The position numbers and the translations under genes were made by a program. Source: Allosphingosinicella sp. (GTDB taxonomy: Bacteria > Pseudomonadota > Alphaproteobacteria > Sphingomonadales > Sphingomonadaceae). From it: DNA of 64,000 bases. The notes below the pieces were generated by a model, which saw nothing but the letters and a program-made list of their open reading frames with translations, was not told the origin of the DNA and ran no database searches. How positions within the stretch are numbered: position 1 is the stretch's first letter; every line of letters begins with the position of its first letter. Shown here one piece after another: positions 4,419 to 54,024 of this stretch. The stretch spans positions 9,241 through 73,240 of the forward strand of contig DASQND010000028.1 of assembly GCA_035645215.1 (NCBI GenBank), written 5' to 3'.

Positions 4419-4445
4419 AGATGTTCGGGAGCGTATGCGGGCAAC

Positions 4446-13188: not shown

Positions 13189-13396
13189 TGAGCGTAGCCC
13201 TAGAAATCGTCAGCCTAAGCGAAGCGTGCTGTCATGCAGGATCCTCTGCACCTTTGCTTTGCACTCAGCGTCGGTAGTGCAGCATGCCGTACGCCCGTGT
13301 GTCGGTCGGATCGAATGATCATGCCCGTTGTCGCAGCAATATGCTGCCAGTACCACGTATCGGCCGTGCAAGAGGCTTTTGGTTGACGAGGGAAGC

Positions 13397-26716: not shown

Positions 26717-27500
26717 GAATAAAGCCTACAACAATGATCTGAGGGACGCCATGCGCCAGCTGGCGATAGTCAACGCACGAACGGCCACTAAAATTAGAGC
26801 TCGATCGCAAACGCCGGGGCGATGACTTCTCTCCAAAGTGTCCCGCCGGAACGGCCGACGGAGCCGCCGGAATTGACCTCTTCCAGGCCGCAATCGCTCT
26901 GCTTGATGCCCATTGGCACGTAGCGCGCGCGCAACCGAGCTTCAACAACTTCGAATGCCGGAAACCTGCTGCTGAACTCTCTTAGCTTCGGAACGAGCCG
27001 ATGATGGAGTTGGGGATCCGGGCGCCCCTCGGTCTGAGCGTGCCGGAGGCGCATTCGCGCACTTACGACGTCATCCACCGACGTTCGGATAAGCTTGGGC
27101 TCACCGTCACCGAGAAGCACATGGGGAATGTGCTCGCGGATGGGATCGTCCCCCCAGCGCTGCACCAAGATCGATGCATCGACGAGATGGTAAGGGGGAG
27201 CGGAAAGCCAAGAATAGCCGAGTTCCGCGCCTGCAAAATCGCGGAAGTCGCAGTGCTGCAACGACCGGTGCAAATCGGTACCGTCCACCGAGAAATTGGC
27301 TGAACCTAGAGCTCCGAAGCTCCATATGGTGATGGCCGTCCTGGGCTGGCGCCAGATCCGCCCCAATGTGCTGGAACTTCTGCGACAGCTCTTCCAGGCC
27401 GTCTTTCCCACATGGATCTTTACCAAAAGGCTCGCCGCCCATCGGGCCGGCTCGCTTCCGCGCCGCGCCTGTGCAGTTCCGCTCCGTCCCGGCGCGCTTA

Positions 27501-28895
27501 CTAGAACCCGCTCGAGCGCTCGACGAGTTCTTGCCGATCCGGCCTCGGCTGGGGGACGGCGTCCTGTGTCTTGCTTGGGCGGCGCCTGCATCCGCGCCAA
27601 ATCTCGTCAAGCTGGTCCGGCGTTGGCGGGGGCGGCAAATTGTTATTGTCACAAATCGGCGGCGCGAAGGGACAGATCACGTCACGCAGGAACGTGTCGA
27701 TCACGGCCTGCGCTGCAGCCCGTCCTATGCGCTGGCCGGCGACGTGATCAGAAACCCAATGCACACCTGCCCACAAACGGGCCTCGCCGATATTGTTGGC
27801 AAGGCGACGGAGCTCGGCCGCGATCCAGCCAGGGTTACTAAGGAACTCGAGCGTGATTCGACCCGCTGGGAACTTCTCGAATAGCGTTTGGTCGTCGTCG
27901 TCTAGCGTGTCCGGCGAGAAGAAATATTCCAGCATGTAAGTGGCTGCCGCGCTGTAAGTGCTATGCCCAGAGGGCCAGGCCGGGTGCCGCGGCGTCCCGG
28001 GGCTGTCGGGGTGAAAGCTTCCAGCGCCCGGCGGCACGAGCGGACAGTCGCGACGCGGACCTGGTTCTTCGTCATGCCCCTGCTCGTTCACCGCAAAATC
28101 GTACAGCACCGAAAACTCAGTCTGCTGTTGCTGGCCATCGTGCCGGACGGCGTACTCCGAAGGCCGTAGCAAACGGCTAAACTGGCTCCGCCACTTGTAG
28201 AACCAAGCCGCGCTGAGAGCGGTGTAGATTGCCATGTCGAGTCCCATCCATATCCGCGCATGGCGCGGGGGAGAGACGTCGCGGCGTAGGAAAAGCAGCC
28301 AGTTCAGCGCGTGGCGGTGATAGAGGCCAGGCGTCTCATCCTCGAACATGCGAGCAAGCTCGCGCCCTTCGTTCACAAGAGGCGACCGCGACAGGATCCT
28401 CAGATGCTGCTTCAGGACCTTGCCGATCGCGAACTGAGTTCGCTCACGCGTGTCGAATATGGCTCCGAAGGGCGGATCTTGAAGGTGGATAAAGCGGGAT
28501 AGCGGCGTCAGCCCCCTGAAGTCTCCCACCGACGCGTCGCCTGCGGGGATGACTTGGTACGGAAAGTCGGAGCGGCGATCGTTCAGCTCTTTTAGGAAGA
28601 CGAACTGACGCTGCAGGTCGATGTCGCTAGGAAAAAACGCTTCGTCTAAAAACAAACGGGGTCTACTGCCGGGTTGCTCCGTAAGCGCGACGACCTCTGC
28701 AAGCGCAGGGACCCGTATGGCAGGCTCGTCGAGCCAAAAGCCGGAGGTGGGTTCAACCTGCGGGCCATGGAGGCGGTACGCACGCGCTTGATCTCCCGGC
28801 TGGCTTGCCATCGCTCTCTCCCTCGGTTCTCCAAAAAACTCCTGTCCGTTCACGCAACCGGGCCCGACTCGGCCAAGATTTAAGAACAGCACCAT
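27501..28895 (-). CDS. Vanadium-dependent haloperoxidase / PAP2-superfamily enzyme
   Basis: KW...RP, HPAWPSGH, ARLWAGVHWVSDH motifs. Confidence 0.8.
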   Translation of the reverse strand: MVLFLNLGRVGPGCVNGQEFFGEPRERAMASQPGDQARAYRLHGPQVEPTSGFWLDEPAIRVPALAEVVALTEQPGSRPRLFLDEAFFPSDIDLQRQFVFLKELNDRRSDFPYQVIPAGDASVGDFRGLTPLSRFIHLQDPPFGAIFDTRERTQFAIGKVLKQHLRILSRSPLVNEGRELARMFEDETPGLYHRHALNWLLFLRRDVSPPRHARIWMGLDMAIYTALSAAWFYKWRSQFSRLLRPSEYAVRHDGQQQQTEFSVLYDFAVNEQGHDEEPGPRRDCPLVPPGAGSFHPDSPGTPRHPAWPSGHSTYSAAATYMLEYFFSPDTLDDDDQTLFEKFPAGRITLEFLSNPGWIAAELRRLANNIGEARLWAGVHWVSDHVAGQRIGRAAAQAVIDTFLRDVICPFAPPICDNNNLPPPPTPDQLDEIWRGCRRRPSKTQDAVPQPRPDRQELVERSSGF

Positions 28896-29219
28896 ATCAT
28901 TTTCTTTGTCTTTTGAGCACCCGTCCCATCGTCTCAACTGGTTACAGTCAGTCGGCGCTTCCGGCTGATCATGCCGGAGGCTCGCCGCCCGTCAACCCGG
29001 CTCGATTCCGCGCCTTCGCCTTGTGCAGCTCCGCCCCGTTCCGGCGCGCTTCGCGCGAGGTTTGACCGGCGCCTCTTCCTCCGCCTTTTTGCTCACTAGG
29101 ACGACGCGGGCAGGTCTGCCGCTTCCATCCCCAACTTCCACAGCCCCTGAGGCTGGGCTTCCTTGCCTCTTCCCGGCCCCTCCCCCAGATTGAGGCTTCA
29201 CCTTCCCCAAGGAGCCGAA

Positions 29220-30179
29220 GTGCCGACGCTGTTCTTCTCTTACTCCCATGCCGACGAAGCGCTGCGCGACCAGCTCGAAAAGCAGCTGTCGATCATGAAG
29301 CGCCAGGGCCTGATTGAGGCGTGGCACGACCGGCGCATCGGCGCGGGCGCCGACTTTGCGCTTGCGATCGATGAGCATGTCAACAGCGACGACATCATCC
29401 TCCTGCTCGTGAGCCCGGACTTCCTGGCCTCGGATTACTGCTATGAGCGTGAGATGCTGCGGGCGATGGAGCGGCACGAGGCGGGCGAGGCCGTGGTGAT
29501 TCCCGTCATCCTGCGGGCTTGCCCTTGGACCCGCGCTCCATTCGGCAAGCTCAACGCCGTGCCACGCGATGGGCGACCGGTCACGCTCTGGCCGGACCGG
29601 GATCAGGCGTTTCTCGAGGTGGCCAATGCCATCGGCGAAGCGGCCGAGCGCCTGGGCGGCCCCAAGAGCGCCGCGCCTTCCGCGCCGCCGCCGGTCGCTG
29701 CGCCCGCCGCCCCAGCCGTGCCAGCGGGTCCGCGCTCCAGCAACCTGCGGGTGGCGAAGCGCTTCACGCAGCGCGACAAGGATCAGTTCAAGCTCGAAAG
29801 CTTCGAGTATATGGCGCGGTTCTTCGAGAACTCCGCCGCCGAGCTCGCCGTCCGCAATCCCGGCATCGACGCCGATTTCCAGCGCATCGACGCCGGCCGC
29901 TTCATGGCGCGGGTCTACGTCGACGGCCGCAAGGTCGCGGCCTGCACCGTCTACCTCAGCAGCGGTTTCGGCGGCGAAGGCATCGGCTATGTCTCCGAGG
30001 AGACGATGGCGAGCAACACTCTCAACGAGAGCCTGAGCATCCAAGCCGACGATCAATCGCTCTATCTCCGCTCGATGGGAATGCAGGCTATGATCCGCGA
30101 GCGCGACGAGAAGCTCACACAGGAAGGCGCTGCCGAGCTCTATTGGGGGCTGCTCATCGAGCCGCTCCAGCGCAGCTAG
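29220..30179 (+). CDS. TIR-domain protein with an unknown C-terminal domain
   Basis: LFFSYSHAD, WHDRRI, LLVSPDFLASDYCYEREM (putative catalytic Glu); GTG start after aaggag. Confidence 0.85.
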   Translation: MPTLFFSYSHADEALRDQLEKQLSIMKRQGLIEAWHDRRIGAGADFALAIDEHVNSDDIILLLVSPDFLASDYCYEREMLRAMERHEAGEAVVIPVILRACPWTRAPFGKLNAVPRDGRPVTLWPDRDQAFLEVANAIGEAAERLGGPKSAAPSAPPPVAAPAAPAVPAGPRSSNLRVAKRFTQRDKDQFKLESFEYMARFFENSAAELAVRNPGIDADFQRIDAGRFMARVYVDGRKVAACTVYLSSGFGGEGIGYVSEETMASNTLNESLSIQADDQSLYLRSMGMQAMIRERDEKLTQEGAAELYWGLLIEPLQRS

Positions 30180-33160: not shown

Positions 33161-33346
33161 ATGATCTCGCTCAGCTCCATGTTGGCACGTGAACTTAGCC
33201 CCTCGGAAATCGAAGCGATAGGTGGGGGTAGTTGCCGTTGTAGCTGCTCTAGCGGGCAGGTCTCGATGTCATGCAACAGCAGTGGGTGCAGCCCTCCTTA
33301 TTGTGAGGACGCAGCTGCGATGCTCCAATGCGAAGGCTCTTGTTGA
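33161..33346 (+). CDS. RiPP precursor: double-glycine leader plus Cys/Ser-rich core
   Basis: ELSPSEIEAIGGG followed by SCRCSCSSGQVSMSCNSSGCSPPYCEDAAAMLQCEGSC; heads a cluster containing a C39 exporter. Confidence 0.8.
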   Translation: MISLSSMLARELSPSEIEAIGGGSCRCSCSSGQVSMSCNSSGCSPPYCEDAAAMLQCEGSC

Positions 33347-33421
33347 GCGGAATTGCTCAGCCTGTCGCGCCTGGGGTATGCGTAGGCGGAAGACCTGCGA
33401 AATCTGGATTGGATCTGCGTC

Positions 33422-33640
33422 ATGTCGAACGCCGAAGCGGTAGACACCAACGCGGTGGTGCCGCACGAGGTCGACCTGCCCATCTATCAGCGACGTATGG
33501 CGCGTTGCCGCGCTTGCCACAACTCGCGGAGACTCTTGGGGCAGAACAGCGAGCGCATCATTCAATGCACCCTTTGCCACTGCATAATGAACATTAAGAA
33601 TCGGCTGCCGAACGCCCGCTGCCCAATAAATCTGTTTTAG
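33422..33640 (+). CDS. Small Cys-rich protein (DUF6171-like)
   Basis: YQRRMARCRAC...CTLCHC...K...RCP. Confidence 0.7.
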   Translation: MSNAEAVDTNAVVPHEVDLPIYQRRMARCRACHNSRRLLGQNSERIIQCTLCHCIMNIKNRLPNARCPINLF

Positions 33641-33654
33641 ATCCTTACACCAGG

Positions 33655-34755
33655 ATGGCAGACTCGGTCGTTGTATTCGCCGGCGACATAGACGCGGACG
33701 TCGCGTATGTCATAAAGGCACTCTCTATATTAAACTTCGATGTAGCTCTCGTCGATGGGTCTACTATTCTCGGCAGCGGCGCTCTCTCCGTCTATTCCGG
33801 CTCCCACTCGCGCGTCGCCATGGTGGAGGCGAATGGACGATCATACTCACTGGATGATCAACAGGTAAGTGTCTGGAACAGGAGAAACTTTTACTCCCCT
33901 CAGGACCCGGGATTCAACTCACCAGCGGAATTCGAGGAGGCCCGTACGAACCTCTTTCACGCGACGGCGTGCCTGAAGAGCTTGCTCAATGGCCGAAACG
34001 CTACCAACACTTGGCTCGCTAACGAGAGGTACTCAGTCAAAACCGAGCAGTACCAACTCGCAGCGCAATCAGGCTTTTGCGTTCCGGCGACATTGATCTC
34101 CAATAATCCGGCACGAATTAGGGAGTTTGCGCGGTCGCTGTCGCGCGTCTGTGTGAAACCCTTCGCCTCGACAAACTTCAACCAGGGCAAGCCAGGCGCA
34201 AACGCGAGGGTCTTCACCGCAACAATCCTTGAGCGTCTGGATGAGATCGACGATTCCCCCCTGGCCGCCGCGCCGCTGATCTACCAGCAGATGATAGAGA
34301 AGACCTGCGATGTTAGAATAGCCGCGTTCGGCGATCACGCGTCAGGCGTGATGATACCTTTCGACAAGAACGACGATCCTCTAGACTACAAATCGAGCTT
34401 TAATTATCTGTCGAAGCTTAGACCCGTCGCACTCCCGGACAACATACGTTCTATGGTGAAGAGCTACCTCAGGCAAGCGGGGCTTGGCTTCGCAGTGTTT
34501 GATTTCGCCGTTTCGGAAACAGGAGATTGGTGGTTCCTTGAAGCCAACACCGCCGGTCGCTTTACCTGGATGGAGCTGTTTTGCGAAGACGTAAACCTCT
34601 TGTGGCCGTTCTGCTTTCATCTCGTGGGCTCCGACGGGAACGGACACGTGGCGGTGGCGGACCTACCCGACATGAGTTTCGTAGTGAATGAGGCCGAGGA
34701 AGATCCGGCCATAGCTAAGTTCGTTGGCGAGCCGGTCGTTGTCGCGTCGGGCTGA
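33655..34755 (+). CDS. ATP-grasp ligase, RimK/graspetide-synthetase-like
   Basis: KTEQYQLA..GF.VPATLISN, VKP, IYQQMIEK..DVRI, DF...WFLEAN. Confidence 0.85.
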   Translation: MADSVVVFAGDIDADVAYVIKALSILNFDVALVDGSTILGSGALSVYSGSHSRVAMVEANGRSYSLDDQQVSVWNRRNFYSPQDPGFNSPAEFEEARTNLFHATACLKSLLNGRNATNTWLANERYSVKTEQYQLAAQSGFCVPATLISNNPARIREFARSLSRVCVKPFASTNFNQGKPGANARVFTATILERLDEIDDSPLAAAPLIYQQMIEKTCDVRIAAFGDHASGVMIPFDKNDDPLDYKSSFNYLSKLRPVALPDNIRSMVKSYLRQAGLGFAVFDFAVSETGDWWFLEANTAGRFTWMELFCEDVNLLWPFCFHLVGSDGNGHVAVADLPDMSFVVNEAEEDPAIAKFVGEPVVVASG

Positions 34756-34762
34756 GCACAAA

Positions 34763-35932
34763 ATGAAGGTTGCCGCGCTCTCAGCGCTGATCTTCGCCAG
34801 TTTGCCCATTGCCGCGGCGTTGGCTGATGTACGACCCACGTCCGCAGTCTTACTCACGCCGCGTGTGCGGCCCGCGGCTTTCCCAAAGTCAGCGCTGATC
34901 CCCGCTGAGGTCGCTAAGCTGGGCGAGTCGCCGGTTGTGGCATACCAGCATGAAGGCAAGCTGTTCATCGTTGCGCGGCACGAAGGAGCTGAGCCGGCGC
35001 TGAGCGGTACATTTCGCGGCCGGCTTCAGCGCATCGATGACGGATTGGCGAACCTCTGGGGCGCCGCGTTCGAAGTCGACAGTCTTGATCGTGCGATTTT
35101 GGACATCATTGTAACAGCGGATGCTGGTTTCGTCGGCTACTTCCAATTCCGTGGGAGCGCTGCCGGCCCGATGCCCGTAGATGCGCTTCGCGCCGGCGTC
35201 ATGGTGCGACAGACGGTTACGGGTGCCCAATCCGGACTGACACGCCGCATCGCCATCTACCGTCCTAGAAACTCATCTCGATCCTCGCGAATGATGTACG
35301 TCCTCGACTTGGCAGAGAGTCCAGACAGCTTCTTCCGGCGTGTAGATGCACTGATCTACGAACAGGTGATCAGCCCTGTCATCATCATTGCGCTCCCCGC
35401 AGGCGATGGAATCAGCACAGTCCGCATCAGCGACATGCAGCGTCGGAGTGAGCTGCGGCTCCAAGAACGAGTGAGTGGTCTAAACCCGGCCGTTTACCGC
35501 CGCTACGAGCAATTCATCTTTGATGACCTGGCGCCAGCTCTTACACGAGAATATCAGGTCGGCCAAAACCGGGAGCAGGTGGCTTTCGTAGGTACTTCGG
35601 CCAGTGCGACCTGGGTGCTTCATCAGGCGCGACACCGCCCAGGTGAAGCCGGCGTGTGGGGTGCCTTTTCCCTTCCGAACAATCCCGTGGACCGACTCCC
35701 CGACAATGCTAGCGAAAGAATCTTCATGGGCGGAGGGGCTTTCGACCTCGAGTACACAGTAAATGGTCTAGCGAAATGCACTGAGATCTTGAGACTTGGC
35801 GGTGATTGTCGCTTCACGGTCGTGAATGCCGGACACAGCCAGAGTGCATGGGATGAGCTCATCGCAGATCTTCTGATCAATTGGGAGGATCTGTCGACAC
35901 GTGAGGGAGGCGGGGGTGCCGTCAGACCCTGA
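34763..35932 (+). CDS. Secreted alpha/beta-hydrolase (putative esterase)
   Basis: Signal peptide; GTSAS nucleophile elbow; GGGAFD; AGH. Confidence 0.7.
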   Translation: MKVAALSALIFASLPIAAALADVRPTSAVLLTPRVRPAAFPKSALIPAEVAKLGESPVVAYQHEGKLFIVARHEGAEPALSGTFRGRLQRIDDGLANLWGAAFEVDSLDRAILDIIVTADAGFVGYFQFRGSAAGPMPVDALRAGVMVRQTVTGAQSGLTRRIAIYRPRNSSRSSRMMYVLDLAESPDSFFRRVDALIYEQVISPVIIIALPAGDGISTVRISDMQRRSELRLQERVSGLNPAVYRRYEQFIFDDLAPALTREYQVGQNREQVAFVGTSASATWVLHQARHRPGEAGVWGAFSLPNNPVDRLPDNASERIFMGGGAFDLEYTVNGLAKCTEILRLGGDCRFTVVNAGHSQSAWDELIADLLINWEDLSTREGGGGAVRP

Positions 35933-37181
35933 TTACGTTGAGATCAGAAGCTTCTCTCAAAGTGAGATGTTCAGACCGGAAGCGGTTCGATTCGCTACGA
36001 ATCGGCTCCAAGGCTCCCTTGTTATACATCATCGTCCCTCCCATCTGCTGCTGGCACTGTTCGCTACCGTGATCGTACTGGCAGGATTTGCTGCAGCGGC
36101 CGTGATCCCAATCCCACAGAAAGTGGAAGCCCCCGGGTGGATCGTTCCCGCGGGCGGGCTCGTGCGAATGGCGGCTCCGCAAACCGGTATCTTGTCCCAG
36201 CTGAACATAGCTGAAAATCGCCCCGTCCGAAAAGGCGAGCTTCTAGCCATTCTTAGATACCCTACGAGCTCGGCGGCAGGTGAGACTGAGGATGTGCTGG
36301 AAGAAACTGCGCGTCGCCAGTTGGAGGCTTTGGCCGACCAGACCGCCGTGAATATCGAGAAAGCTTCTGCTGAAGTGGGGGACGCCGAGAGGCGGCTCCG
36401 CTTGCTTCAGCGCGAACTCCTGGAGGCGAACGGTCGCGCTCGGATCGAATACGACAAGCTGGTGCTCGCCAGAAGCCGTCTGGAGGGGTATTCCACGCTG
36501 GCCGCTCGCGGGCTTATATCCAGAGCCGCTCTGGTCCAGCACCACACAAATGTTCTCGAGGCGGAGGCCGCAGTGTCTCAGGCGCGGTCGAGCGTCCTGG
36601 GCATTGAGCGCGAGATCGCGAACGCCGAAGCTGAGGCTCGAGCATCGCGGCTGAACGGCCGTCTGGCGGCATCGGAGGGCCAGGCCGGAAGAGCAGCTCT
36701 TGTCGAGAGGCTTACAACGGCCAGCAGACAGCAGGGCTCTAGAATCTATGCCTCCTCGGACGGCACAGTGGGGGCAGTGCCGGTCTCCCTAGGGCAAACG
36801 GTCGCCGGTGGTGAGACCATCGCGTGGCTGATGCCCAATCAAGGGCGTTTGGAGGTCGAAATTTACGTTGCAGCTGCAAACGCTGCTCAAGTGCGGGTGG
36901 GGCAGGAGGTGCGCGTCCACTTCCAGGATGAGCGGAATTCCAGCCTCTCACTCACCGGCCGTGTTCGGGCCGTTACCATGAACGCTCTTCCTCCGAACGA
37001 GATCGCACTACCCTCGGCTAATCTGGAAGAACCGGTATTCGTCACCCGCGTCGCTCTGCCAACGGATTTCGGCGGCCACAACTTGCGCGCCGGAACACCT
37101 GTGCGCGCTACTATTTTGGTGAGGCGCCAGACGCTCCTGGCTCGTATTCTGCAGCCTCCATCCGCTGCCGGTAGGCAGTAG
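35901..37181 (+). CDS. HlyD-family membrane fusion protein
   Basis: FRPEAV, one transmembrane helix, coiled coil, lipoyl-like VRKGELL and GQTVAGGE; start may be 35916 or 35967. Confidence 0.88.
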   Translation: MREAGVPSDPDYVEIRSFSQSEMFRPEAVRFATNRLQGSLVIHHRPSHLLLALFATVIVLAGFAAAAVIPIPQKVEAPGWIVPAGGLVRMAAPQTGILSQLNIAENRPVRKGELLAILRYPTSSAAGETEDVLEETARRQLEALADQTAVNIEKASAEVGDAERRLRLLQRELLEANGRARIEYDKLVLARSRLEGYSTLAARGLISRAALVQHHTNVLEAEAAVSQARSSVLGIEREIANAEAEARASRLNGRLAASEGQAGRAALVERLTTASRQQGSRIYASSDGTVGAVPVSLGQTVAGGETIAWLMPNQGRLEVEIYVAAANAAQVRVGQEVRVHFQDERNSSLSLTGRVRAVTMNALPPNEIALPSANLEEPVFVTRVALPTDFGGHNLRAGTPVRATILVRRQTLLARILQPPSAAGRQ

Positions 37182-37182
37182 C

Positions 37183-39282
37183 ATGCGGCGAGCGATCCGC
37201 ACCATCCTAGCTACGGAGCAGGCTGATTGCGGCCTCGCCTGCCTCGCGATGGTCAGCGACTACTTCGGCGATCGCTTCGAGCTTGTGCAGCTCAGGCAAG
37301 CCTTCCCTGTTTCCGCCAACGGGACGAACTTAGCGGCACTCATAAGCGCCGCCGCCGCGATGGGATTAGGGGCGCGCGCTCTCAGGGTCGAACTTGAAGC
37401 GCTGCGCTGCATTTCCGACCCAGTGATCATACACTGGAACTTGAACCACTTCGTCGTTCTCGAATCAGTTCGGGGCCAATGGGCGATCATTCACGATCCG
37501 GGCATTGGAAGACGCCGCGTTCGATTCGCCGAACTCTCGCACCACTTCAGCGGCGTTGTTCTGGAGCTCTTCCCGCGCGCGGAGTTCGTCAAACGAGATC
37601 GCCGCGAGCGGCTGAAATTCTGGCATCTGTGGTCGAAGAGCACAGGCTTGTGGGCAGCCGCTTTGCAAATCATTGCCGTGTCCGCTCTCGTCCAGGTGCT
37701 GGCGATCATTCCAGCCCTGCAGCTCCAAGTCGTTGTCGATCAGATGTCCTTCAATGGAGGCAGCGAATTTATCCTGCTCATCGGGCTCGGTTTTGCGGCG
37801 GCCGTGTGCTTCCAAGCAATCGCTACCGGCATAAGAGACTGGACAGTCCAAGTGGTCGGCTCGAAAATTCTTCTGCAGCTAACAGGCAATGTGCAATCCC
37901 ACCTCGTCCGCCTCCCGATCGCGTGGTTCGAGAAACGGCAGGTCGGCGATGTTATATCCCGATTGAATGCGCTTGGCTCCCTGAAGGATCTGCTTGGGCA
38001 GGGTGTGATATCGGTGGCAATCGACTCCGTGAGCTTGATCTTAGTAGCGACTTTCATGGTTGGGTATTCGGCTTGGCTCGCTTTGGTGGTGTTCGCCTTC
38101 GCTTCTCTCGGCGTCGTCTTTTCGCTGGTCACCTCCAAGCTGACCATCGGTCGATCATCGGAGTCATTGCTGGCCGCAGGGGTCGAGCAAACCCACGTGA
38201 TCGAATCTTTGCGGGCAATGAGTACGATCAAGATCATGGGTCAGGAACAGATTCGGGTAGCCCGCTGGCGAGACCTGGCAACGGAGACGATAAATAAGAC
38301 GTTGACTGTGTCGAAAATCGCCTCTGTTGCTTCTTCTGTAAATATCGCAATTGCCGGGCTGCAGACCGTTTCTGTTCTTTGCATTGGCGCCCTTCTCGTG
38401 CAAGCAGGCACTGGTTTCTCGCTCGGCATGCTGATGACATTCTACGCCTTGTCACTGGTGTTCTCTGACCGGCTACGCTCGGCTGCCGCACAGGTCATGC
38501 AATTTCGCATGGTTGGACTGCATCTTGATCGGTTGGGCGACATCGTTCTCGAGCCGGCCGAGTCCGATCAGCTGATGCCCTCCAGGAGCTGGGAGGGCGG
38601 CATTGAGTGCTGCAAGCTTTGGTTTCGCTACGGTGTGTCTGACCCTTGGGTATTGCGCGACGTTAGCCTGAACGTCGCGCCTGGGGATTTTCTGGCGATC
38701 GTGGGTCCATCGGGAATGGGAAAATCCACCCTGATACGATTGCTCCTAGGCGTGCTTGAACCTTCTAAGGGTGAGATTCTGCTTGATGGAGAGCCGGCAA
38801 ACGCGTCTTTGTGGCGATCTTGGCGATCCCAGGTCGGCGTGGTTGGGCAGTCGGACACCCTCTTCTCCGGGACGTTCTACGATAATATTTGCCTCTTTGA
38901 CCCTTCGGCGCGCTTTGCCGATGTGGAAGCTGCCGCCAAGGCCGCGCAAATCAACGACGAGATCACGCGATTGCCTCTGCGATACCAGACACGAATCGGT
39001 GACATGGGATCCTCGCTGTCCGCCGGCCAGAAGCAGAGGCTGATGCTCGCGCGCGCGCTTTACCGGAGGCCTCGGATCTTGTTGCTCGATGAAGGCACAG
39101 CTAATTTGGACGAAACCAACGAACGTCGCATTCTCGAGATCGTCAGGGAGCTGCCCATCACGAGAATCATAGTGACTCACAAAGCATCCGTTGCTGCTCT
39201 CGCGGACAGGGTTGTGTCGTTGCAGGCCGGGCACCTCTTAGAGCTCGATCGAGGCAGAACGACTCGGAAGCGCGATAACTGA
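37183..39282 (+). CDS. Peptidase-domain (C39) ABC transporter
   Basis: QADCGLACLAM, HWNLNHFVVL, GPSGMGKST, LSAGQKQR, LLLDEGT. Confidence 0.93.
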   Translation: MRRAIRTILATEQADCGLACLAMVSDYFGDRFELVQLRQAFPVSANGTNLAALISAAAAMGLGARALRVELEALRCISDPVIIHWNLNHFVVLESVRGQWAIIHDPGIGRRRVRFAELSHHFSGVVLELFPRAEFVKRDRRERLKFWHLWSKSTGLWAAALQIIAVSALVQVLAIIPALQLQVVVDQMSFNGGSEFILLIGLGFAAAVCFQAIATGIRDWTVQVVGSKILLQLTGNVQSHLVRLPIAWFEKRQVGDVISRLNALGSLKDLLGQGVISVAIDSVSLILVATFMVGYSAWLALVVFAFASLGVVFSLVTSKLTIGRSSESLLAAGVEQTHVIESLRAMSTIKIMGQEQIRVARWRDLATETINKTLTVSKIASVASSVNIAIAGLQTVSVLCIGALLVQAGTGFSLGMLMTFYALSLVFSDRLRSAAAQVMQFRMVGLHLDRLGDIVLEPAESDQLMPSRSWEGGIECCKLWFRYGVSDPWVLRDVSLNVAPGDFLAIVGPSGMGKSTLIRLLLGVLEPSKGEILLDGEPANASLWRSWRSQVGVVGQSDTLFSGTFYDNICLFDPSARFADVEAAAKAAQINDEITRLPLRYQTRIGDMGSSLSAGQKQRLMLARALYRRPRILLLDEGTANLDETNERRILEIVRELPITRIIVTHKASVAALADRVVSLQAGHLLELDRGRTTRKRDN

Positions 39283-40054
39283 GCAGCTAGCCGCAGGTTT
39301 GGCGCCGTGTGCCCGGGCGAGTGGCGATGAATGGCAGCGAGGGCAGGGCGACATCAAAGTGCGGAGCTTCATTCGCCTCCGAGATGGTCAGCACAGTCTG
39401 CTCCGCCGCCATTGCCGTCGCCCCTCTGGGGTCGCCGTCGCGTACAGGCGTTGGCCGATGTGCGCCCACGTCGGCAGCTCGCTGCTAAGTGGCGACGACC
39501 GAACCAACCAAGATCGCATCCTCGGCCGCTACTGTCCCAACTCAGACTCCACTGAGCGAGAGCTGGCGGGTGAGCGTTTGCATGACTTGGCGCGCGTCCT
39601 GCTCAGAGTCGCACGCAGGCAGGGCCTAGACATGCACAGGAGCGACTCGAGTCAAATGGCGCGGAAGGCAGTATTCTGAGTCTCCAATCGAGGCATGCAA
39701 TCCAATTCCGCTTACATTCGCGTTCTGCGATACATTGCTGATTCCACTAGATAAAACTCGCTTGACTTGCACACGGCCCCCTGTACCTTCGAGTCTGATG
39801 TGCGTCGGTTGCGTAGGGGGTATCCACCTATGATGTGAGGATGCATGACAAATTATATTGTCATCTGTCGCAATGGTCTCAGCAATGCTGCCGAGGCGAT
39901 TCTCTCTGATGTTCAAGAGCCTTTTACCGTCCGAGTTGAGTCTGACGAAGGCATCACATACTGCGACTCTAAAATCGGAACGATCAGCCGTAGCGCTTGG
40001 TCGAAGGTGAAGCAGGATGTGCGTGGGACATTCCAAGCGAAATCGGTGGCGGGA

Positions 40055-41206
40055 ATGCCGAAAACACGGCTTGCCCGTCGACCCAGTCGATTACTTCGAA
40101 TAGCGATCTCCGGCTGGGCGGTTTTCTTCGCAGCGCAGCCGCTGGCAGCACAGGGCAGCATCCTGCCTGCGTCCCAAGGGATTCAGCCACCGGAACGGCG
40201 CGCCTTTGTCGTCGGTATCCCGGTCTACGACCGCTACCCGGCAGTCAACGGCGCGCGCAATGACGTCCCAGCCATCCGCCGGGCGCTCGCGCGGCTTGAT
40301 TTCAAGGTAACAGTCGCGGTCACGCGCCGGGGCGAGCCGGAGGGCCGGATCGATCTCGAAAGCTTCATTGAGCAACTCACTGCCTTCGTCGCGACGATCG
40401 AACCCGGCGACACCGTCATGGTTTATTTCAGCGGCCACGGTATCGAGCGCAACGGCATCAATTACCTGGTGCCCTCGAGCTTCCAGTACGACCCCGGCGA
40501 TCTTGGCGGACATGCCATTCCGCTCAACCACTTAATGCGGACGATCGAGGACACCGGCGCGCGGCTGATGATCCTCGTCCTCGACGCGTGCCGCACCGAC
40601 ACGCTTCCAAAGATTCCCAATGTGGATCAGCTTTCGGGAGAGGCGCTGCGCGCGGCGATCGTCGCCGCGACTCCGCCCACGGAACTCGTCGGCACGCGCA
40701 GCGATGACAGTCTCCAGGGAGGCGCCGGGCCGGCGGACGGTGGCGACACCTTAGTCGCTGGCTTGTCCCCGGTGCCGGGATCGAGCCGGTTGCTGATCGC
40801 CTATGCGGCCGAGGCGCGCAGGCCGTCCTTCGGCGGCCACGGCGGCGATCCGCCCGGGACGCCGAGCTTTTACACCCGTCACCTGGCTCAAGCGATCGTC
40901 CAGCCGGGCCTGACGCTTGAACGCATTCTCAACGAGGTGTCTCGCCAGGTGAGCTACGACACCGGCAAGGCCCAGATCCCTTGGGCCAGCGACCCGGGCT
41001 TTCCGGATGGCGACCTCGTCTTCAACCCGACAGCGGAGCAGCGCCAGGGGATGGAGAAGCGCTGGCGCCTGACCCGGCAACGCACCGGGTCTGGGGCGCC
41101 CGACGCGCTGTGCATATTCCTCAAGGACTATCCCGAAAACCCGTATCGCAACGAGGCCGTCCGCCGACTTCACGCGCTGTCGCCCGCTATGACCGAGCTC
41201 TGCTGA
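40055..41206 (+). CDS. Secreted caspase-family (C14) protein
   Basis: Signal peptide; YFSGHG and LDACR His/Cys dyad. Confidence 0.85.
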   Translation: MPKTRLARRPSRLLRIAISGWAVFFAAQPLAAQGSILPASQGIQPPERRAFVVGIPVYDRYPAVNGARNDVPAIRRALARLDFKVTVAVTRRGEPEGRIDLESFIEQLTAFVATIEPGDTVMVYFSGHGIERNGINYLVPSSFQYDPGDLGGHAIPLNHLMRTIEDTGARLMILVLDACRTDTLPKIPNVDQLSGEALRAAIVAATPPTELVGTRSDDSLQGGAGPADGGDTLVAGLSPVPGSSRLLIAYAAEARRPSFGGHGGDPPGTPSFYTRHLAQAIVQPGLTLERILNEVSRQVSYDTGKAQIPWASDPGFPDGDLVFNPTAEQRQGMEKRWRLTRQRTGSGAPDALCIFLKDYPENPYRNEAVRRLHALSPAMTELC

Positions 41207-41237
41207 CCCGCTGTCATCCTCAACCGAAGGATCTCCC

Positions 41238-42161
41238 ATGCGCATCTGCTCGCTTCTCGCCGCTGCCGTAGCGGTCACCGCCTGTGCACAGACCGACGGT
41301 TCGGCCGCCGTCGAACCGTCGCGAGACGCCCGCGAGGAACGCGCCGCGCTGGCCGCGACGGGCTCGCTGCCCCTACTTGACCTGATCAGCCGCGTCCGGA
41401 CCGGCCGGCAGCTCGTCGAGCGGCGGGTCATCGGTGGCATCGACGCAGTTCAGGGCGAAGACCCTTGGCAGGTGGCGCTGCTCGCCCGCGAGCTGAACGT
41501 CAACGACGCCTTCTGCGGCGGCTCGCTCATCGCGCCGAACGTGGTGCTCACTGCCGCCCACTGCCTCGATCGCGGCACCCGCGCCGAGCAGGTCGACGTG
41601 CTCGCTGGCACGGTCAACCTCAACCAAGGGGGCGAGCGCGTCCACGCCACTCGCATCGTCCTCCACCCGCGCTACAACCGGCCGGTCCGGAGCAACAACG
41701 ACATCGCCTTGCTGTTCCTTGAGCGGTCGTTGACCACCGGCACCATCGCCGCCGCCGACGCGCAGGCCGATGCGCTGGTCGAGGCCGCGGTCGCCAATCC
41801 GCCGACCATGTCCAGGGTCACGGGCTGGGGCCAAACCGCTTCGCAATCGGATCCGCCGCTGCTGCAGACCGTGGACGTCCCGATCGTCCCGCGCAGCCGC
41901 TGCCGCCATCCCTTGTCCTACGGCGCCAGCCGAATCACCGACAACATGATCTGCGCCGGCTTCAATGAAGGGGAACGGGATTCCTGCCAGGGCGACAGCG
42001 GCGGCCCGCTCACTATCGCCAGCGGCAGCCGCCGCGCGCTCGTCGGCGTCGTCAGCTTCGGCGCGGGCTGCGCCGAGCCGAACAAGTTCGGCGTTTACAC
42101 CCGCGTCGCTAACTACACGCGGTGGATCAATTCCTGCATCGCCGGAACCTGCCGGCCGTGA
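41238..42161 (+). CDS. Trypsin-like (S1) serine protease, lipoprotein
   Basis: Lipobox VTAC; VIGG, LTAAHC, NDIALL, GDSGGP. Confidence 0.93.
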   Translation: MRICSLLAAAVAVTACAQTDGSAAVEPSRDAREERAALAATGSLPLLDLISRVRTGRQLVERRVIGGIDAVQGEDPWQVALLARELNVNDAFCGGSLIAPNVVLTAAHCLDRGTRAEQVDVLAGTVNLNQGGERVHATRIVLHPRYNRPVRSNNDIALLFLERSLTTGTIAAADAQADALVEAAVANPPTMSRVTGWGQTASQSDPPLLQTVDVPIVPRSRCRHPLSYGASRITDNMICAGFNEGERDSCQGDSGGPLTIASGSRRALVGVVSFGAGCAEPNKFGVYTRVANYTRWINSCIAGTCRP

Positions 42162-42919
42162 CGGCGCGCCGGCTGACGCTCGCCGCCCTGTTCCTCGGCT
42201 CGGCCGCGGCCGCCCAGGCGCCCTTGCTGTCGATGCGGGGAACGCTGCCCGCCGCTGGCGCCGCAGCGTCTGCTCCGCCATCGTCCGGGCACACGGTCCA
42301 GCTGGCCGCCGGCCAGCGTGTGCGGATCTCCGCCGCGTCCGACGATTTCGACACCGTGTTGCGGCTGTTTCAGCTAGGCAAGGCTGAGCCGATCGCCGAG
42401 AATGACGATTTCGATGGCAGCCTCAATTCGCGCTTGCTGTTCACCGCGCCCGAGCCCGGCGAGTACCGGATCGAGGTTTCGGCTTTCTCGTCCGGGGCGA
42501 GCGGCGCCTACTCCCTGGTCGTAAGCCGCGCGCCGTCCCTGCCGCAGCCGGTGACCGAGGCCACGACCACGACCGCTTCCATCGAATGGCGCCGGTTCGA
42601 GGGCGCCTTGACCGCCGAGGATCCCGAAGGCGAGGGCGGCCGCTTCGACGATTTTCAGCTGGCGCTCGCCGAGGGCCAATCCATCGTGATCCTGCTCGAC
42701 GCGGTGGAGGGCGCATTCGATCCGGTCGTCCACGTTCATGACCTTGCCGGCCGCGAGAGCGCGCCGATCGCGACCAACGACGACGCCGGCGCCGGGCTCT
42801 CCTCGCGCCTGCTTTTCACCGCGCCTGCCGCCGGTGACTACATTATTCGCGTCGCCGCCTTTAGCGGGGGCCGCGGCCGCTACAGCCTCCGCGTCAGCGA
42901 CGTTGCCTCACCCGACTGA
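42158..42919 (+). CDS. Secreted protein with two PPC (pre-peptidase C-terminal) domains
   Basis: Two repeats of FD.VL.L...IA.NDD...LNSRL.FTAP..G.Y.I; GTG start overlaps the trypsin stop. Confidence 0.8.
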   Translation: MTARRLTLAALFLGSAAAAQAPLLSMRGTLPAAGAAASAPPSSGHTVQLAAGQRVRISAASDDFDTVLRLFQLGKAEPIAENDDFDGSLNSRLLFTAPEPGEYRIEVSAFSSGASGAYSLVVSRAPSLPQPVTEATTTTASIEWRRFEGALTAEDPEGEGGRFDDFQLALAEGQSIVILLDAVEGAFDPVVHVHDLAGRESAPIATNDDAGAGLSSRLLFTAPAAGDYIIRVAAFSGGRGRYSLRVSDVASPD

Positions 42920-42951
42920 GGGCCTTCAAAATTTCAACAAGGGGATCGGCC

Positions 42952-43839
42952 ATGAGAAAATATTTGCTACGCATTACAGCCGTCCTGACTACCGCCGCGC
43001 TCGCCGTGCCGGCCGCCGGCCAGGCGACGACGAGCCGACCCGACGGCACCCATGTCTACATGCTTTCGGATCTTGACCTGCCTTCGAGCATCGTCGCGCC
43101 GCCGACTTGCCAAACGGGCGCAGACGTGGACCGCGCTGTTTTTCTGCCGATTCTGCTGTTCGCGGCGAACATGGTCCTCCAGGAAGGCCTTGAGGCGCTC
43201 AGCCGGCGCGAGGCAGCACGCCTCGAGTCCTACAGCAACAGCTACGGCGGCCGCGCCAACCTGACGGGGCTACCCGACCTGCCCGAACAGACGGCCGTGG
43301 CCGGCGGGACTCCGGTCAAGACCCCCTGCATGGCGGTCGAGCGGCGCGCGAACAACGCGCTCGCCAGCCTGTTCATCTTCGAGCTACGCGCGATCGACGA
43401 GAGCGCCTTCATGGCACGCCCGGTATATGCCAGCATCGTAACCTCGCCGGTCGTACAGGCCTCACGCGTGAACACCATCAACACCACGGTGCTGCTCGGC
43501 TTTGATGCGATCGTGTCCGAGCCGTGCCAGGGACCCGGGTGCGTGCTGCGCCGGTCGCAGGCGATCGGGTCGCCGAGCTTCACCTTCCGGGGCCTCACGG
43601 CCGGGACGCCGATCACCGCGTGCACAAGTCCGGGACAGACCGGCGACTGCCGCAAGCTAGGCAGCGCCTCCGCGCTTATGCCACGGCCGATGGCGGGATT
43701 CCCGGTTACGGTCGCGGCGACCGTCAGCGAGGTCAGCACCAGACTCCAGAACGCCAAGATCCAGAACGCGATCTGGGAGCGGCAGCGGGCGAACCTGCTG
43801 ACCGCCCTCAACAAGGTCATCTCCGGCGCACTCGAGTAG
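42952..43839 (+). CDS. Secreted hypothetical protein
   Basis: Signal peptide; last gene of the cluster. Confidence 0.7.
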   Translation: MRKYLLRITAVLTTAALAVPAAGQATTSRPDGTHVYMLSDLDLPSSIVAPPTCQTGADVDRAVFLPILLFAANMVLQEGLEALSRREAARLESYSNSYGGRANLTGLPDLPEQTAVAGGTPVKTPCMAVERRANNALASLFIFELRAIDESAFMARPVYASIVTSPVVQASRVNTINTTVLLGFDAIVSEPCQGPGCVLRRSQAIGSPSFTFRGLTAGTPITACTSPGQTGDCRKLGSASALMPRPMAGFPVTVAATVSEVSTRLQNAKIQNAIWERQRANLLTALNKVISGALE

Positions 43840-44290
43840 AGCGTGGCTGGCGAGCGGGGGCCGCGCGACCGCCCGCTTTGGACCGAAAGCGAGCGTAGCA
43901 TCTATCATGGCTCAAACGTGCGCTTTCCTGTCCTCGTCAGGAAAAGCAGATATTCATCCGCCCGGCCAAAGGCAGATGTAGCCGCCTCTACGCAATCGCT
44001 GATCGGTAACTTGTGAACGGGCGGCACCTCCCCTTCTGGAGGCGAATGGTGATTGAGGTCAGGTGAGGAATTCGCTCAACCTCGTAGCCCCGCCGTTCGA
44101 ACCAACGCACTACCCTGCGGGTGCTATCGCCAACCGGACTCCTCAACGCAAGCTCGGTTCCCAGGCACGCTGTTCTTGTCTCAAGGTAGTCACCTCGGCG
44201 TCCCAGCGACGGCAAAACGAGGCTGTTTGGCCACCCAGCGCCTCTGCGGTACGCCCGCTAGGAATGAGTCAAAGCAGCTCCGTTGGGCGC

Positions 44291-49087: not shown

Positions 49088-49606
49088 CTAACAGCTCTCC
49101 AGCTTTAGGGTACGGCGAAGCTCCGCAAGGGGCATTCGGCGCCAGTGCGCCTTAGACGAAAAGTGCCACCAGGGCCGGCTGGAAAGCCGATAGGCGGCGC
49201 AGTCCTGCAGCTGGAACGGCCGCACTGCAAAGTCGGGTATGACGATCGAGAGCGATCCAAGCGCGGTGGTGATCGCATACTCATCATCCGTGTCGCTGTG
49301 GTAGGCCTCGGTTGGATGGCTATGGACCTGTGCAATGAGCCGCAGGCGGCTGCGGTGGAGCCACATGTTGATGCGGTGAAGCTCGTCGCCGGGAACCGAG
49401 ACAGCGAGGCCGTGCTCGGTGCGATGACCCTGCTGTCGGGGGATAATCGCCTCGGTCACATCGAAGCGGGTTTCGCCGAGCCTGCCCGCCCAGAGGGCCA
49501 TGCCCTCGAGCCCCTTCCGTCCCGTCGATCGAAGGTGCTCGATGGTGCAGTCGATCACATTGGGAGGTACGATGACCTTGGTGACGGTGGTGAGGCTGTT
49601 CTTCAT
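49088..49606 (-). CDS. JAB/MPN deubiquitinase-like peptidase (BilC-like)
   Basis: LEGMALW, HSHP...SDTD; start at 49606 in an ATGA overlap with the E2 stop. Confidence 0.9.
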   Translation of the reverse strand: MKNSLTTVTKVIVPPNVIDCTIEHLRSTGRKGLEGMALWAGRLGETRFDVTEAIIPRQQGHRTEHGLAVSVPGDELHRINMWLHRSRLRLIAQVHSHPTEAYHSDTDDEYAITTALGSLSIVIPDFAVRPFQLQDCAAYRLSSRPWWHFSSKAHWRRMPLAELRRTLKLESC

Positions 49607-54022: not shown

Positions 54023-54024
54023 AG

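What the first reader, a model, noticed from the sequence alone, without database searches (positions are those of the whole stretch)
33161..39282. RiPP cluster combining an ATP-grasp ligase with a double-glycine, 8-Cys precursor
Seen: the precursor core after GGG is 38 aa with 8 Cys, 10 Ser, 3 Asp/Glu and no Thr or Lys. It is followed by a DUF6171-like protein, ATP-grasp ligase, esterase, HlyD and C39-ABC exporter, all co-oriented. Established knowledge: graspetide synthetases link Ser/Thr/Lys to Asp/Glu, and C39 exporters cleave after GG. Inference: this core fits none of the graspetide motifs I know (microviridin, plesiocin, thuringinin types). It could give a hybrid of up to four disulfides plus Ser-esters, or Cys thioester crosslinks.
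Basis: partly seen in the sequence, partly recalled or inferred. Interest (0 to 1): 0.75.

Follow-up and report, generated by a model that had tools for sequence, protein, structure and literature searches.

The report
Cysteine-rich graspetide-type peptide gene cluster
A soil bacterium carries a rare six-gene operon that should make, cross-link and export a small peptide with eight cysteines; it is an unusual variant of the known "graspetide" peptides, and its chemistry can only be settled by experiment.

Summary
The six co-oriented genes are at the stated coordinates, and the residue counts are exact: 38-aa core, 8 Cys, 10 Ser, 3 Asp/Glu, no Thr or Lys. The ligase is a genuine MvdD/MdnC-type graspetide synthetase with intact catalytic motifs, but it is isolated. 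An exhaustive search of 1.8 billion representatives gave one close relative (43% identity); all others are 31% or less.

That relative sits in the same gene order: precursor, 69-aa six-Cys protein, ligase, secreted esterase, HlyD. In its precursor all 8 Cys, Glu26, Glu35 and four Ser are invariant. Asp27 is not.

The leader (LARELxxxExxxxGG) matches leaders of neighbouring synthetase clades that have ordinary Asp/Glu- and Thr/Ser-rich cores plus a C39 exporter. So pairing an ATP-grasp with a GG leader and a C39 exporter is not new.

The new features are:
- the 8-Cys core;
- the orphan six-Cys helical protein, which is not DUF6171;
- a Fes-like secreted esterase, whose nearest relatives are stand-alone housekeeping genes.

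Most likely product: one or two Ser-to-Glu esters plus disulfides. Native thioesters or a metal-bound core are not excluded. Verdict: new variant of a known kind, interest 0.6.

The parts
33161..33346 (+). Precursor peptide, 61 aa: leader 33161-33229 (MISLSSMLARELSPSEIEAIGGG), core 33230-33343 (38 aa, 8 Cys), stop 33344-33346
   Evidence: Homologous precursor in L005 with all 8 Cys, E26, E35, S5, S12, S14 and S18 invariant. Leader motif shared with precursors of neighbouring synthetase clades.
33422..33640 (+). 72-aa cytoplasmic protein with six invariant Cys (C29, C32, C49, C52, C54, C67; CxxC-x16-CxxCxC-x12-CP). Orphan family, candidate metal-binding partner of the ligase.
   Evidence: The only homologues are in the sister cluster (L005, L009/P0155). 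No Pfam or PDB match. AF2 gives a helical hairpin, pLDDT 70.5, with no fold match.
33655..34755 (+). ATP-grasp graspetide synthetase, 366 aa (K168, D219-V220-R221, E296/N298 conserved)
   Evidence: TIGR04187 6.1e-45, MvdD 2.6e-27, MvdC 7e-25, all below curated cut-offs. PDB 9bou, 5ig9 (MdnC), 7mgv (CdnC), 7drm. Invariant residues. Isolation shown.
34763..35932 (+). Secreted serine esterase, 389 aa: signal peptide MKVAALSALIFASLPIAAALA, N-terminal beta domain plus alpha/beta-hydrolase; Ser279 (GTSAS), His358, Cys339/Cys349
   Evidence: PF00756 2.1e-8, above cut-off. AF2 pLDDT 72.9; Foldseek top hits are Fes enterobactin esterase, CBM48-CE1 feruloyl esterases and BES. Conserved in the sister cluster L004. 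Stand-alone relatives exist.
35916..37181 (+). HlyD-family membrane-fusion/adaptor protein (421 aa from 35916; an alternative GTG start lies at 35901)
   Evidence: PF13437 2.3e-13, TIGR01843 1e-24. Gene call. An HlyD start is also present after the esterase in L004.
37183..39282 (+). Peptidase-containing ABC transporter (C39 domain with Q13/C16/H89/D105, six-helix TMD, NBD), 699 aa
   Evidence: PF03412 2.5e-31, PF00664, PF00005; best NCBIfam match TIGR03796 NHLM_micro_ABC1 1.3e-139. Motif positions.

Best explanation
This is a rare, previously unclassified graspetide-type RiPP operon. Shown or directly read from sequence: a 61-aa precursor with a double-glycine leader, a bona fide graspetide synthetase, a catalytically intact C39-ABC exporter with its HlyD adaptor, a signal-peptide esterase, and a small six-Cys protein. 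All are tightly packed and co-oriented, and the first five are conserved in the same order in one independent lineage. Inferred mechanism: (1) The ligase binds the LARELxxxExxxxGG leader in the cytoplasm. (2) It phosphorylates the side chains of the two invariant glutamates, E26 (in PxCE) and E35 (in LQCEG). It closes one or two macrolactones with invariant serines. S12/S14 of the (R/Q)VSxSC motif are the best candidates, because this motif resembles the RVTSR...PD motif of two neighbouring clades. (3) The orphan six-Cys protein, translationally coupled to the ligase, acts as a clade-specific partner, for example a metal-binding chaperone that keeps or presents the eight thiols. (4) The C39 domain cuts after GG(G) during export. 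(5) The eight invariant cysteines then oxidise to up to four disulfides. The product would be a compact ester-plus-disulfide knotted peptide, by analogy probably a protease inhibitor or antagonistic peptide. (6) The secreted Fes-like esterase acts on the seryl O-ester outside the cytoplasm, as self-protection or turnover or as a processing step.
For: Ligase identity and intact motifs: (K168, DVR 219-221, E296/N298). The 'DFR'-type motif is stated to be critical in PMC13097080. Precursor-ligase coupling: the only close ligase homologue among 1.84e9 representatives (P0002, 1.3e-92) has a homologous 8-Cys precursor directly upstream. A third partial copy ends ...QCEGDCIE. Selection on the core: 8/8 Cys, E26, E35, S5, S12, S14 and S18 are invariant, with 11 synonymous changes, including a TCG/AGC serine codon-family switch at S12. 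Leader homology to five GG-leader precursors next to the next-nearest synthetases, all with PCAT+HlyD: L006, L008, L010, L023, L024. Ser-to-Glu esters are canonical graspetide chemistry. PCAT catalytic residues. Esterase: PF00756 above cut-off, Ser/His conserved in five family members, N-terminal hydrophobic signal followed by ALA|D, a Cys pair typical of exported proteins, and a Fes-like two-domain model. Partner-protein dependence of graspetide synthetases has a precedent in MirC.
Against: No chemistry is shown. Only two lineages exist, so 'invariant' rests on two sequences. The sister precursor carries a 1-nt frameshift in a C-run in the single contig that covers it. That could be an assembly error or a pseudogene. 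The core has only 2 conserved acceptors against 8 Cys, so the ligase contributes little of the cross-linking. Both glutamates directly follow a Cys, which is equally compatible with thiol nucleophiles. The esterase is closer (59%) to stand-alone genes beside panC, or between GSDH and trmB, than to the sister cluster's esterase (36%). Its role may therefore be general rather than dedicated. The small protein's function is pure inference: pLDDT is 70 and there is no homologue of known function. Whether export ends in the periplasm or in the medium is unknown, since no TolC gene is seen.
Confidence: 0.5

Rival explanations
1. Native thioester (thiolactone) graspetide: the ligase uses cysteine thiols, not serines, to attack the acyl-phosphates of E26/E35. 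This would give Cys-Glu thioester rings, possibly followed by acyl shifts. The esterase would then act as a thioesterase.
For: Graspetide synthetases form thioesters efficiently when the nucleophile is replaced by Cys (PMC13097080 and PMC12291112). All 8 Cys are invariant, and each conserved Glu is flanked by Cys (C25-E26, C34-E35). From my own knowledge, PF00756 also contains thioesterases such as S-formylglutathione hydrolase.
Against: Four serines are also invariant, one through a codon-family switch. The VSxS motif aligns with the Thr/Ser-containing motif of neighbouring clades. An even number of Cys fits full disulfide pairing. Side-chain thioesters are labile, and none is known natively in graspetides.
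Confidence: 0.15
2. Metal-centred peptide: the eight cysteines form two tetracysteine (Zn or other metal) sites. These would pre-organise the core for the ligase, or make the exported product a metal-binding peptide. The six-Cys protein would be a metallochaperone, and the Fes-like esterase would open the ester ring to release metal or peptide, as siderophore esterases do.
For: Cysimiditides show an obligate Zn-tetracysteine motif in a RiPP that its modifying enzyme requires (10.1101/2024.10.02.616296). CxCxC and CxxxxC spacings are present, plus a co-conserved six-Cys helical protein. The top structural matches of the esterase are enterobactin and bacillibactin esterases.
Against: No metal-uptake genes (TonB receptor, ABC importer) lie in or beside the operon. 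The Foldseek TM-score is only 0.47, and feruloyl esterases score equally well. The esterase family also occurs away from any such peptide.
Confidence: 0.15
3. Plain disulfide-rich GG-leader bacteriocin: the peptide is only cleaved, exported and oxidised. The ligase would be vestigial or would act on something else.
For: The core is poor in acceptors. PCAT+HlyD alone are enough for class-II-type peptides.
Against: The ligase keeps all catalytic motifs over 57% sequence divergence, and it stays adjacent to the peptide in both lineages. The leader is the type specific to this synthetase neighbourhood. E26 and E35 are invariant while D27 is not.
Confidence: 0.08
4. The 61-aa ORF is a chance ORF and not a gene.
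For: Cys-dense stretches arise by chance in GC-rich non-coding frames; four others occur in the window.
Against: It has an ATG with a Shine-Dalgarno sequence, a unique leader motif, positional and sequence conservation in a cluster whose DNA is otherwise unalignable, and a gene call in one public annotation.
Confidence: 0.02

Closest known systems
PCAT/HlyD-associated proteobacterial graspetide groups (groups 18, 20, 23 of Ramesh 2021/Carter 2026; e.g. the SmaA/SmaB cluster)
   Same: GG-leader precursor, MvdD-type ATP-grasp, NHLM-type C39-ABC exporter (TIGR03796) and HlyD adaptor (TIGR01843). The nearest synthetase representatives (31-35% identity) have this architecture and the same LAREL..E..GG leader.
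   Different: Their cores are Asp/Glu- and Thr/Ser/Lys-rich with 0-3 Cys. They often carry DUF6624 and/or oxygenases. None of the five inspected has the six-Cys protein or a PF00756 esterase. PF00756 appears nowhere in the co-occurrence tables for 43 groups. The ligase here is at most 31% identical to them.
Microviridins (MdnA/MdnB/MdnC)
   Same: Homologous ligase (5ig9 2e-18, 5ig8 4e-17). Ser/Thr-to-Asp/Glu omega-esters.
   Different: No PFFARFL leader, no TxKxPSDx(E/D) core, no Lys and so no lactam, no second ligase, no GNAT. The GG leader and exporter replace them.
Partner-protein-dependent graspetides (rosaritide MirB/MirC)
   Same: A strictly co-occurring extra protein next to the synthetase. 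In that system the partner is required for activity.
   Different: MirC is a 315-aa SurA-like chaperone. Here the candidate partner is a 72-aa six-Cys helical hairpin with no detectable relatives, and dependence is untested.
Cysimiditides (Zn-tetracysteine RiPPs)
   Same: A Cys-rich RiPP core, in which the metal-bound cysteines organise the substrate for its modifying enzyme.
   Different: Different class-defining enzyme (a PIMT methyltransferase), actinobacterial, four Cys rather than eight, no exporter.
Fes/IroE/BES-type siderophore esterases and CE1 feruloyl esterases (PF00756)
   Same: Pfam family, two-domain model, GxSxx nucleophile and C-terminal His. Fes-type enzymes cleave seryl O-esters, the same bond type as a Ser-Glu omega-ester (my own knowledge).
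   Different: 12-17% identity only, TM 0.47. No NCBIfam match. Substrate unknown. The closest relatives are uncharacterised stand-alone secreted proteins.
Engineered thioester-linked ThfA (fuscimiditide system)
   Same: It shows that a graspetide synthetase can join Cys to an acidic side chain.
   Different: It is a non-native substitution. No natural Cys-nucleophile graspetide is described in the papers searched.

Membership tests
Graspetides (RiPP class) | Ribosomal precursor with leader and core encoded beside the modifying enzyme | tested here: met
   The 61-aa ORF lies 308 nt upstream of the ligase start codon, separated only by the 72-aa gene. It is conserved in the sister cluster.
Graspetides (RiPP class) | MvdC/MvdD-type ATP-grasp ligase (graspetide synthetase) with intact ATP/Mg and D-x-R motifs | tested here: met
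   TIGR04187 6e-45, TIGR04184 3e-27, TIGR04185 7e-25, all below curated cut-offs, so it belongs to no curated subfamily. PDB 9bou, 5ig9, 7mgv, 7drm. K168, DVR219-221, E296/N298 invariant.
Graspetides (RiPP class) | Conserved donor (Ser/Thr/Lys) and acceptor (Asp/Glu) residues in the core | tested here: met
   E26 and E35 plus S5, S12, S14, S18 and S/T21 are conserved between the two lineages. This is a minimal set.
Graspetides (RiPP class) | Side-chain omega-ester or omega-amide macrocycles in the product | not testable with these tools
   Needs mass spectrometry of the co-expressed peptide.
Graspetide groups 18/20/23 (PCAT-associated) | Synthetase clusters with the group in the published sequence-similarity network; group-specific core consensus | tested here: inconclusive
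   The published network and Ramesh 2021 were not available. The ligase is at most 31% identical to all other representatives, and the core is unlike the five neighbouring cores.
Graspetide groups 18/20/23 (PCAT-associated) | Co-occurring TIGR03796 exporter and TIGR01843 HlyD | tested here: met
Graspetide groups 18/20/23 (PCAT-associated) | Frequent DUF6624 / 2OG oxygenase partners | tested here: not met
   No such domain in the operon.
Microviridin / plesiocin / thuringinin-type cores | Core motifs TxKxPSDx(E/D)(E/D), TTxxxxEE and the like | tested here: not met
   The core has no Thr or Lys and no paired acidic motif. The motifs are as quoted.
DUF6171 (Pfam) | Match to the Pfam model | tested here: not met
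   No DUF6171 hit at E<=10 for the window protein or for P0155.
c-type cytochrome (because of two CxxCH motifs in the 72-aa protein) | Conserved CxxCH motifs and a signal peptide | tested here: not met
   In the homologues the motifs read CRSCAH and CKLCNC. There is no signal peptide. Pfam hits are sub-threshold.
Peptidase-containing ABC transporter (PCAT, C39) | C39 domain with catalytic Cys/His (and Gln, Asp), and a GG site in the substrate | tested here: met
   PF03412 2.5e-31; Q13, C16, H89, D105; substrate has ...AIGGG|S.
PF00756 esterase (esterase D/Fes/CE1) | Pfam match above the gathering score; Ser nucleophile and His conserved | tested here: met
   34.7 bits against a cut-off of 22. 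S279 and H358 are invariant in five family members. Foldseek probability is 1.0 to Fes and CE1. The catalytic acid was not identified.

The most novel reading that the evidence does not exclude
The ligase natively joins cysteine thiols to Glu26/Glu35. This would be the first natural thioester-(thiolactone-)cross-linked graspetide. Alternatively, it makes transient ester or thioester staples that template the pairing of eight cysteines and are then removed by the dedicated secreted esterase. In both cases the orphan six-Cys protein would be an obligatory new type of synthetase partner.
Probability: 0.15. Interest if true: 0.85.

Novelty: new variant of a known kind. Interest (0 to 1): 0.6.

Why it matters
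Graspetides are defined by Ser/Thr/Lys-to-Asp/Glu cross-links. None of the papers and co-occurrence tables I could search, which cover more than 20,000 predicted clusters in 43 groups, describes the three features seen here: a core dominated by invariant cysteines, a PF00756 esterase, or this six-Cys protein. If the peptide carries both ester and disulfide cross-links, it would be a new knotted scaffold. If the thiols are the nucleophiles, it would extend the natural chemistry of ATP-grasp macrocyclases to thioesters, which are also useful handles for peptide engineering. The esterase offers a testable case of an enzyme that reverses a graspetide cross-link, for immunity or for processing. The cluster is small (6.1 kb) and can be tested directly in E. 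coli.

Tried and rejected
1. The word-indexed protein search with the ligase found only the query itself.
2. Back-translated scans for ligase relatives in genome contigs and metagenome contigs found none.
3. A 48-nt degenerate DNA pattern for core residues V11-E26 gave 4 + 2 hits. On translation, all were chance matches in unrelated frames.
4. A profile search with the six-Cys protein found only the two lineages. Sequence and fold searches against PDB found nothing significant.
5. I considered a cytochrome c or heme-binding reading of its CxxCH motifs and rejected it, because the motifs are not conserved.
6. I considered a SPASM/ferredoxin-like reading. The only support is a sub-threshold NuoI match (1.5e-4 against a cut-off of 457 bits), so I dropped it.
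7. The precursor has no Pfam hit and only a weak TIGR04149 leader match (0.024).
9. Laying contigs of three soil/biocrust runs on the window showed the same strain and no informative variants in the precursor.
10. I expected the esterase's relatives to mark more clusters. Instead they are stand-alone genes in housekeeping neighbourhoods.
11. Ramesh 2021 (PMC8688276) is not held, so the core consensus sequences of groups 18/20/23 could not be compared.


Full report
OBSERVATION. The window holds six co-oriented, tightly packed ORFs on the + strand:
- precursor, 33161-33346;
- a 72-aa protein, 33422-33640;
- an ATP-grasp, 33655-34755;
- an esterase, whose most plausible start is ATG 34763, ending at 35932;
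- HlyD, from 35901 or 35916 to 37181;
- a C39-ABC exporter, 37183-39282.

The gaps between them are 75, 14, 7, -17 and 1 nt. The precursor reads MISLSSMLARELSPSEIEAIGGG|SCRCSCSSGQVSMSCNSSGCSPPYCEDAAAMLQCEGSC. AGGA lies 7 nt before the ATG.

Cys-dense stretches as such are not rare in this GC-rich DNA. Five 40-aa windows with at least 7 Cys occur in the six frames, four of them in non-coding frames. But this is the only ORF with a GG-type leader motif.

The same DNA occurs, 99.9-100% identical, in three biocrust/soil metagenomes.

WHAT THE PROTEINS ARE.

Ligase. It matches the graspetide maturase models: TIGR04187 at 6e-45, MvdD at 3e-27 and MvdC at 7e-25. All are below their curated cut-offs. 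It also matches solved graspetide synthetases: 9bou at 1e-22, MdnC 5ig9 at 2e-18, CdnC, MdnB, AMdnB and the 7drm chain. The ATP-grasp Lys (K168), the D-x-R motif (DVR 219-221) and the Mg-binding E296/N298 are present and are invariant in its one homologue. The literature calls this D-x-R-type motif critical.

Exporter. It has a C39 domain with Q13/C16/H89/D105 and is closest to the NHLM-type exporter model TIGR03796. HlyD is ordinary.

Esterase. It passes the Pfam cut-off for PF00756. It starts with a hydrophobic signal sequence ending in ALA|D and has a conserved Cys pair (C339/C349). It keeps the GxSAx serine (S279) and a C-terminal His (H358). Its AF2 model (pLDDT 72.9) has two domains. The best PDB matches are the enterobactin esterase Fes (E 1.4e-14, TM 0.47), CBM48-CE1 feruloyl esterases and the bacillibactin esterase BES.

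The 72-aa protein. It is not DUF6171: Pfam gives no such hit even at E<=10. Its two CxxCH motifs produce weak cytochrome hits, but they are not conserved in its homologues. Six cysteines are conserved (C29, C32, C49, C52, C54, C67). AF2 predicts a helical hairpin (pLDDT 70.5) with no structural match.

RELATIVES. An exhaustive HMMER search of 1.84 billion cluster representatives found 6305 ATP-grasp relatives but only one close one, P0002 (43% identity, 1.3e-92). The next scores 2e-39. In a full-length alignment, the ligase and P0002 are at most 31% identical to the 132 other representatives.

P0002 lies on two short overlapping contigs, L004 and L005. Together they show the same gene order: precursor, a 69-aa six-Cys protein (58% identical), the ligase, a signal-peptide esterase (36%), and the start of an HlyD gene. 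A third contig, L009, carries the end of a precursor (...QCEGDCIE*), the small protein and the ligase start.

The sister precursor core is NCVCSCPGSRVSTSCSGSGCTAPVCENGGQLQCEGDCID. All eight Cys, E26, E35, S5, S12, S14, S18 and P23 are identical. S21 becomes T, and D27 becomes N. Eleven conserved residues use different codons, including TCG versus AGC at S12. The surrounding DNA is otherwise unalignable, so this is selection on the peptide.

One caveat applies. In L005 the leader (MKSLSSHLARP...) and the rest (...FSVGEIQMVSGG-core) are in different frames. Removing one C from a C5 run restores a 23-aa leader of the same length as in the window. I could not check the reads.

CONTEXT IN THE GRASPETIDE WORLD. 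Five of the next-nearest synthetases (P0003, P0004, P0006, P0007, P0008) sit next to PCAT + HlyD genes. Their precursors have leaders that match the window's:
- SRELTTAEIDQVAGG (L006);
- PRELSAEELELVAGG (L008);
- LLARELNAEERAEVGGG (L010);
- VLARELEAHELDLVAGG (L023);
- a looser version in L024.

Their cores are ordinary for graspetides: rich in Asp/Glu and Thr/Ser/Lys, with 0-3 Cys. Two clusters carry DUF6624. That architecture matches published groups 18 and 20, which combine the synthetase with TIGR03796, TIGR01843 and DUF6624.

So the combination 'ATP-grasp + double-glycine leader + C39 exporter' stressed in the finding's title is already well known. None of these neighbours has the six-Cys protein or a PF00756 esterase. 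Neither PF00756 nor DUF6171 appears anywhere in the supplementary co-occurrence tables of the 2026 survey of 21,584 predicted graspetides.

Two neighbouring cores share RVTSR(V/L)(F/Y)PD. The window and its sister have (Q/R)VS(M/T)SC ... P(Y/V)CE. This is a suggestive but weak hint that S12/S14 and E26 are a donor-acceptor pair.

THE ESTERASE IS NOT RiPP-SPECIFIC. A profile search found three further family members at 44-59% identity to the window's esterase. All are stand-alone. One lies beside panC. Two lie in a conserved block of GSDH, a 156-aa gene, the esterase and trmB, near rimP-nusA. The window's esterase is closer to these than to the sister cluster's esterase.

Its presence at the same position in both clusters, overlapping the HlyD start, still argues that it belongs to the operon. 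But it was drawn from, or exchanges with, a general family of secreted esterases. I leave this unexplained.

MECHANISM. Shown: gene content, motifs and conservation. The rest is inferred:
1. The ligase recognises the leader and activates E26 and E35.
2. It closes one or two rings with conserved serines.
3. The C39 domain cuts at GG(G) during export.
4. The eight cysteines oxidise to disulfides outside the cytoplasm.
5. The six-Cys protein is a clade-specific partner of the ligase. Partner dependence has a precedent in MirC.
6. The secreted esterase hydrolyses the seryl ester, for self-protection or processing.

I put about 0.85 on 'graspetide-type RiPP operon with a new Cys-rich core' and about 0.5 on the full ester-plus-disulfide scenario.

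Three rivals remain. The first is native Cys-Glu thioesters; engineered precedents exist, and both conserved Glu follow a Cys. The second is a metal-organised core; Zn-tetracysteine is required in cysimiditides. The third is a merely disulfide-bonded bacteriocin with an idle ligase. Sequence alone cannot separate the first two from the main model.

NOVELTY AND SCORE. The cluster belongs to a known class and uses known export logic. Its core type and two accessory genes are undescribed in what I could search, and the lineage is very rare: two lineages among about 15 billion proteins. I rate it a new variant of a known kind, interest 0.6. The most novel reading is native thioesters, or transient staples removed by the esterase. 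I give that about 0.15 probability; it would deserve about 0.85 interest if true.

SURROUNDINGS. The operon has slightly lower GC than its flanks: 0.57-0.61 against 0.64-0.68 in the adjacent 28001-30000 and 40001-44000 bins. It lies in a defence island that contains:
- a ThsB-like TIR protein (4e-135);
- a YaaC-like protein;
- a Gabija GajA/GajB pair;
- BilC/BilD-like genes;
- a WYL regulator;
- directly downstream, a caspase-like protease, a secreted trypsin-like protease and a PPC-domain protein.

A Ros/MucR regulator upstream suggests an alphaproteobacterial host. That is my inference from the known distribution of the family.

Noticed in passing
L005:117-306: The sister-lineage precursor is split by a 1-nt frameshift in a C5 run (positions about 146-150). 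Deleting one C restores a 23-aa leader, MKSLSSHLARPFSVGEIQMVSGG, the same length as in the window. This is an assembly error or a real pseudogene. Only one contig covers it.
   Followed up: partly
window 39845-43839 (+): Directly downstream of the exporter lie a caspase-like C14 peptidase (39845-41206), a secreted trypsin-like serine protease (41238-42161), a PPC-domain protein (42122-42919) and an unknown 295-aa protein. Trypsin genes are listed in 15.7% of published group-18 graspetide neighbourhoods, and graspetides are often protease inhibitors. A functional link is possible but untested.
   Followed up: partly
window 52115-56010 (-): A complete Gabija pair: GajA (54025-56010, PADLOC 1.9e-246) and GajB (52115-54022, 5.7e-215).
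   Followed up: yes
window 29163-30179 (+): A Thoeris ThsB-like TIR protein (PADLOC 4.2e-135). No recognisable ThsA was found among the neighbours I scanned. A YaaC-like protein lies at 25709-26716, and an unknown 455-aa protein at 24335-25702.
   Followed up: partly
window 47513-49648 (-): A prokaryotic E2 + ThiF(E1) fusion (47513-49087) and a JAB deubiquitinase-like protein (49088-49648). They match BilD and BilC weakly (1e-20 and 1e-14). An unannotated 643-aa ORF lies downstream (45551-47482), and a WYL-domain protein lies at 50607-51545.
   Followed up: partly
window 27428-27499 and 28978-29051: A 72-74-nt direct repeat (85% identical) flanks the PAP2/vanadium-haloperoxidase-like gene (27501-28937, - strand). 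It was seen as a self-hit in BLAST.
   Followed up: no
L017/L018 (esterase at 8001-9107 / 6930-8036), L021 678-1724: Stand-alone homologues of the cluster's esterase (44-59% identical) occupy conserved housekeeping neighbourhoods: GSDH, a 156-aa gene, the esterase and trmB near rimP-nusA, or a position beside panC. The window's esterase is nearer to these than to the sister cluster's esterase. This suggests recruitment of, or exchange with, a chromosomal paralogue.
   Followed up: partly
window 13328-19404 (+): An AddAB-like pair: a PD-(D/E)XK nuclease protein (905 aa) followed by a UvrD-type helicase (1120 aa). Several large ORFs in 769-8012 have no Pfam match.
   Followed up: no
L023 6337-10332: One neighbouring graspetide cluster (P0007) also lies beside a serine recombinase and a JAB/ThiF + prokaryotic E2 module. 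These PCAT-type graspetide clusters therefore recur in mobile or defence-island contexts.
   Followed up: no
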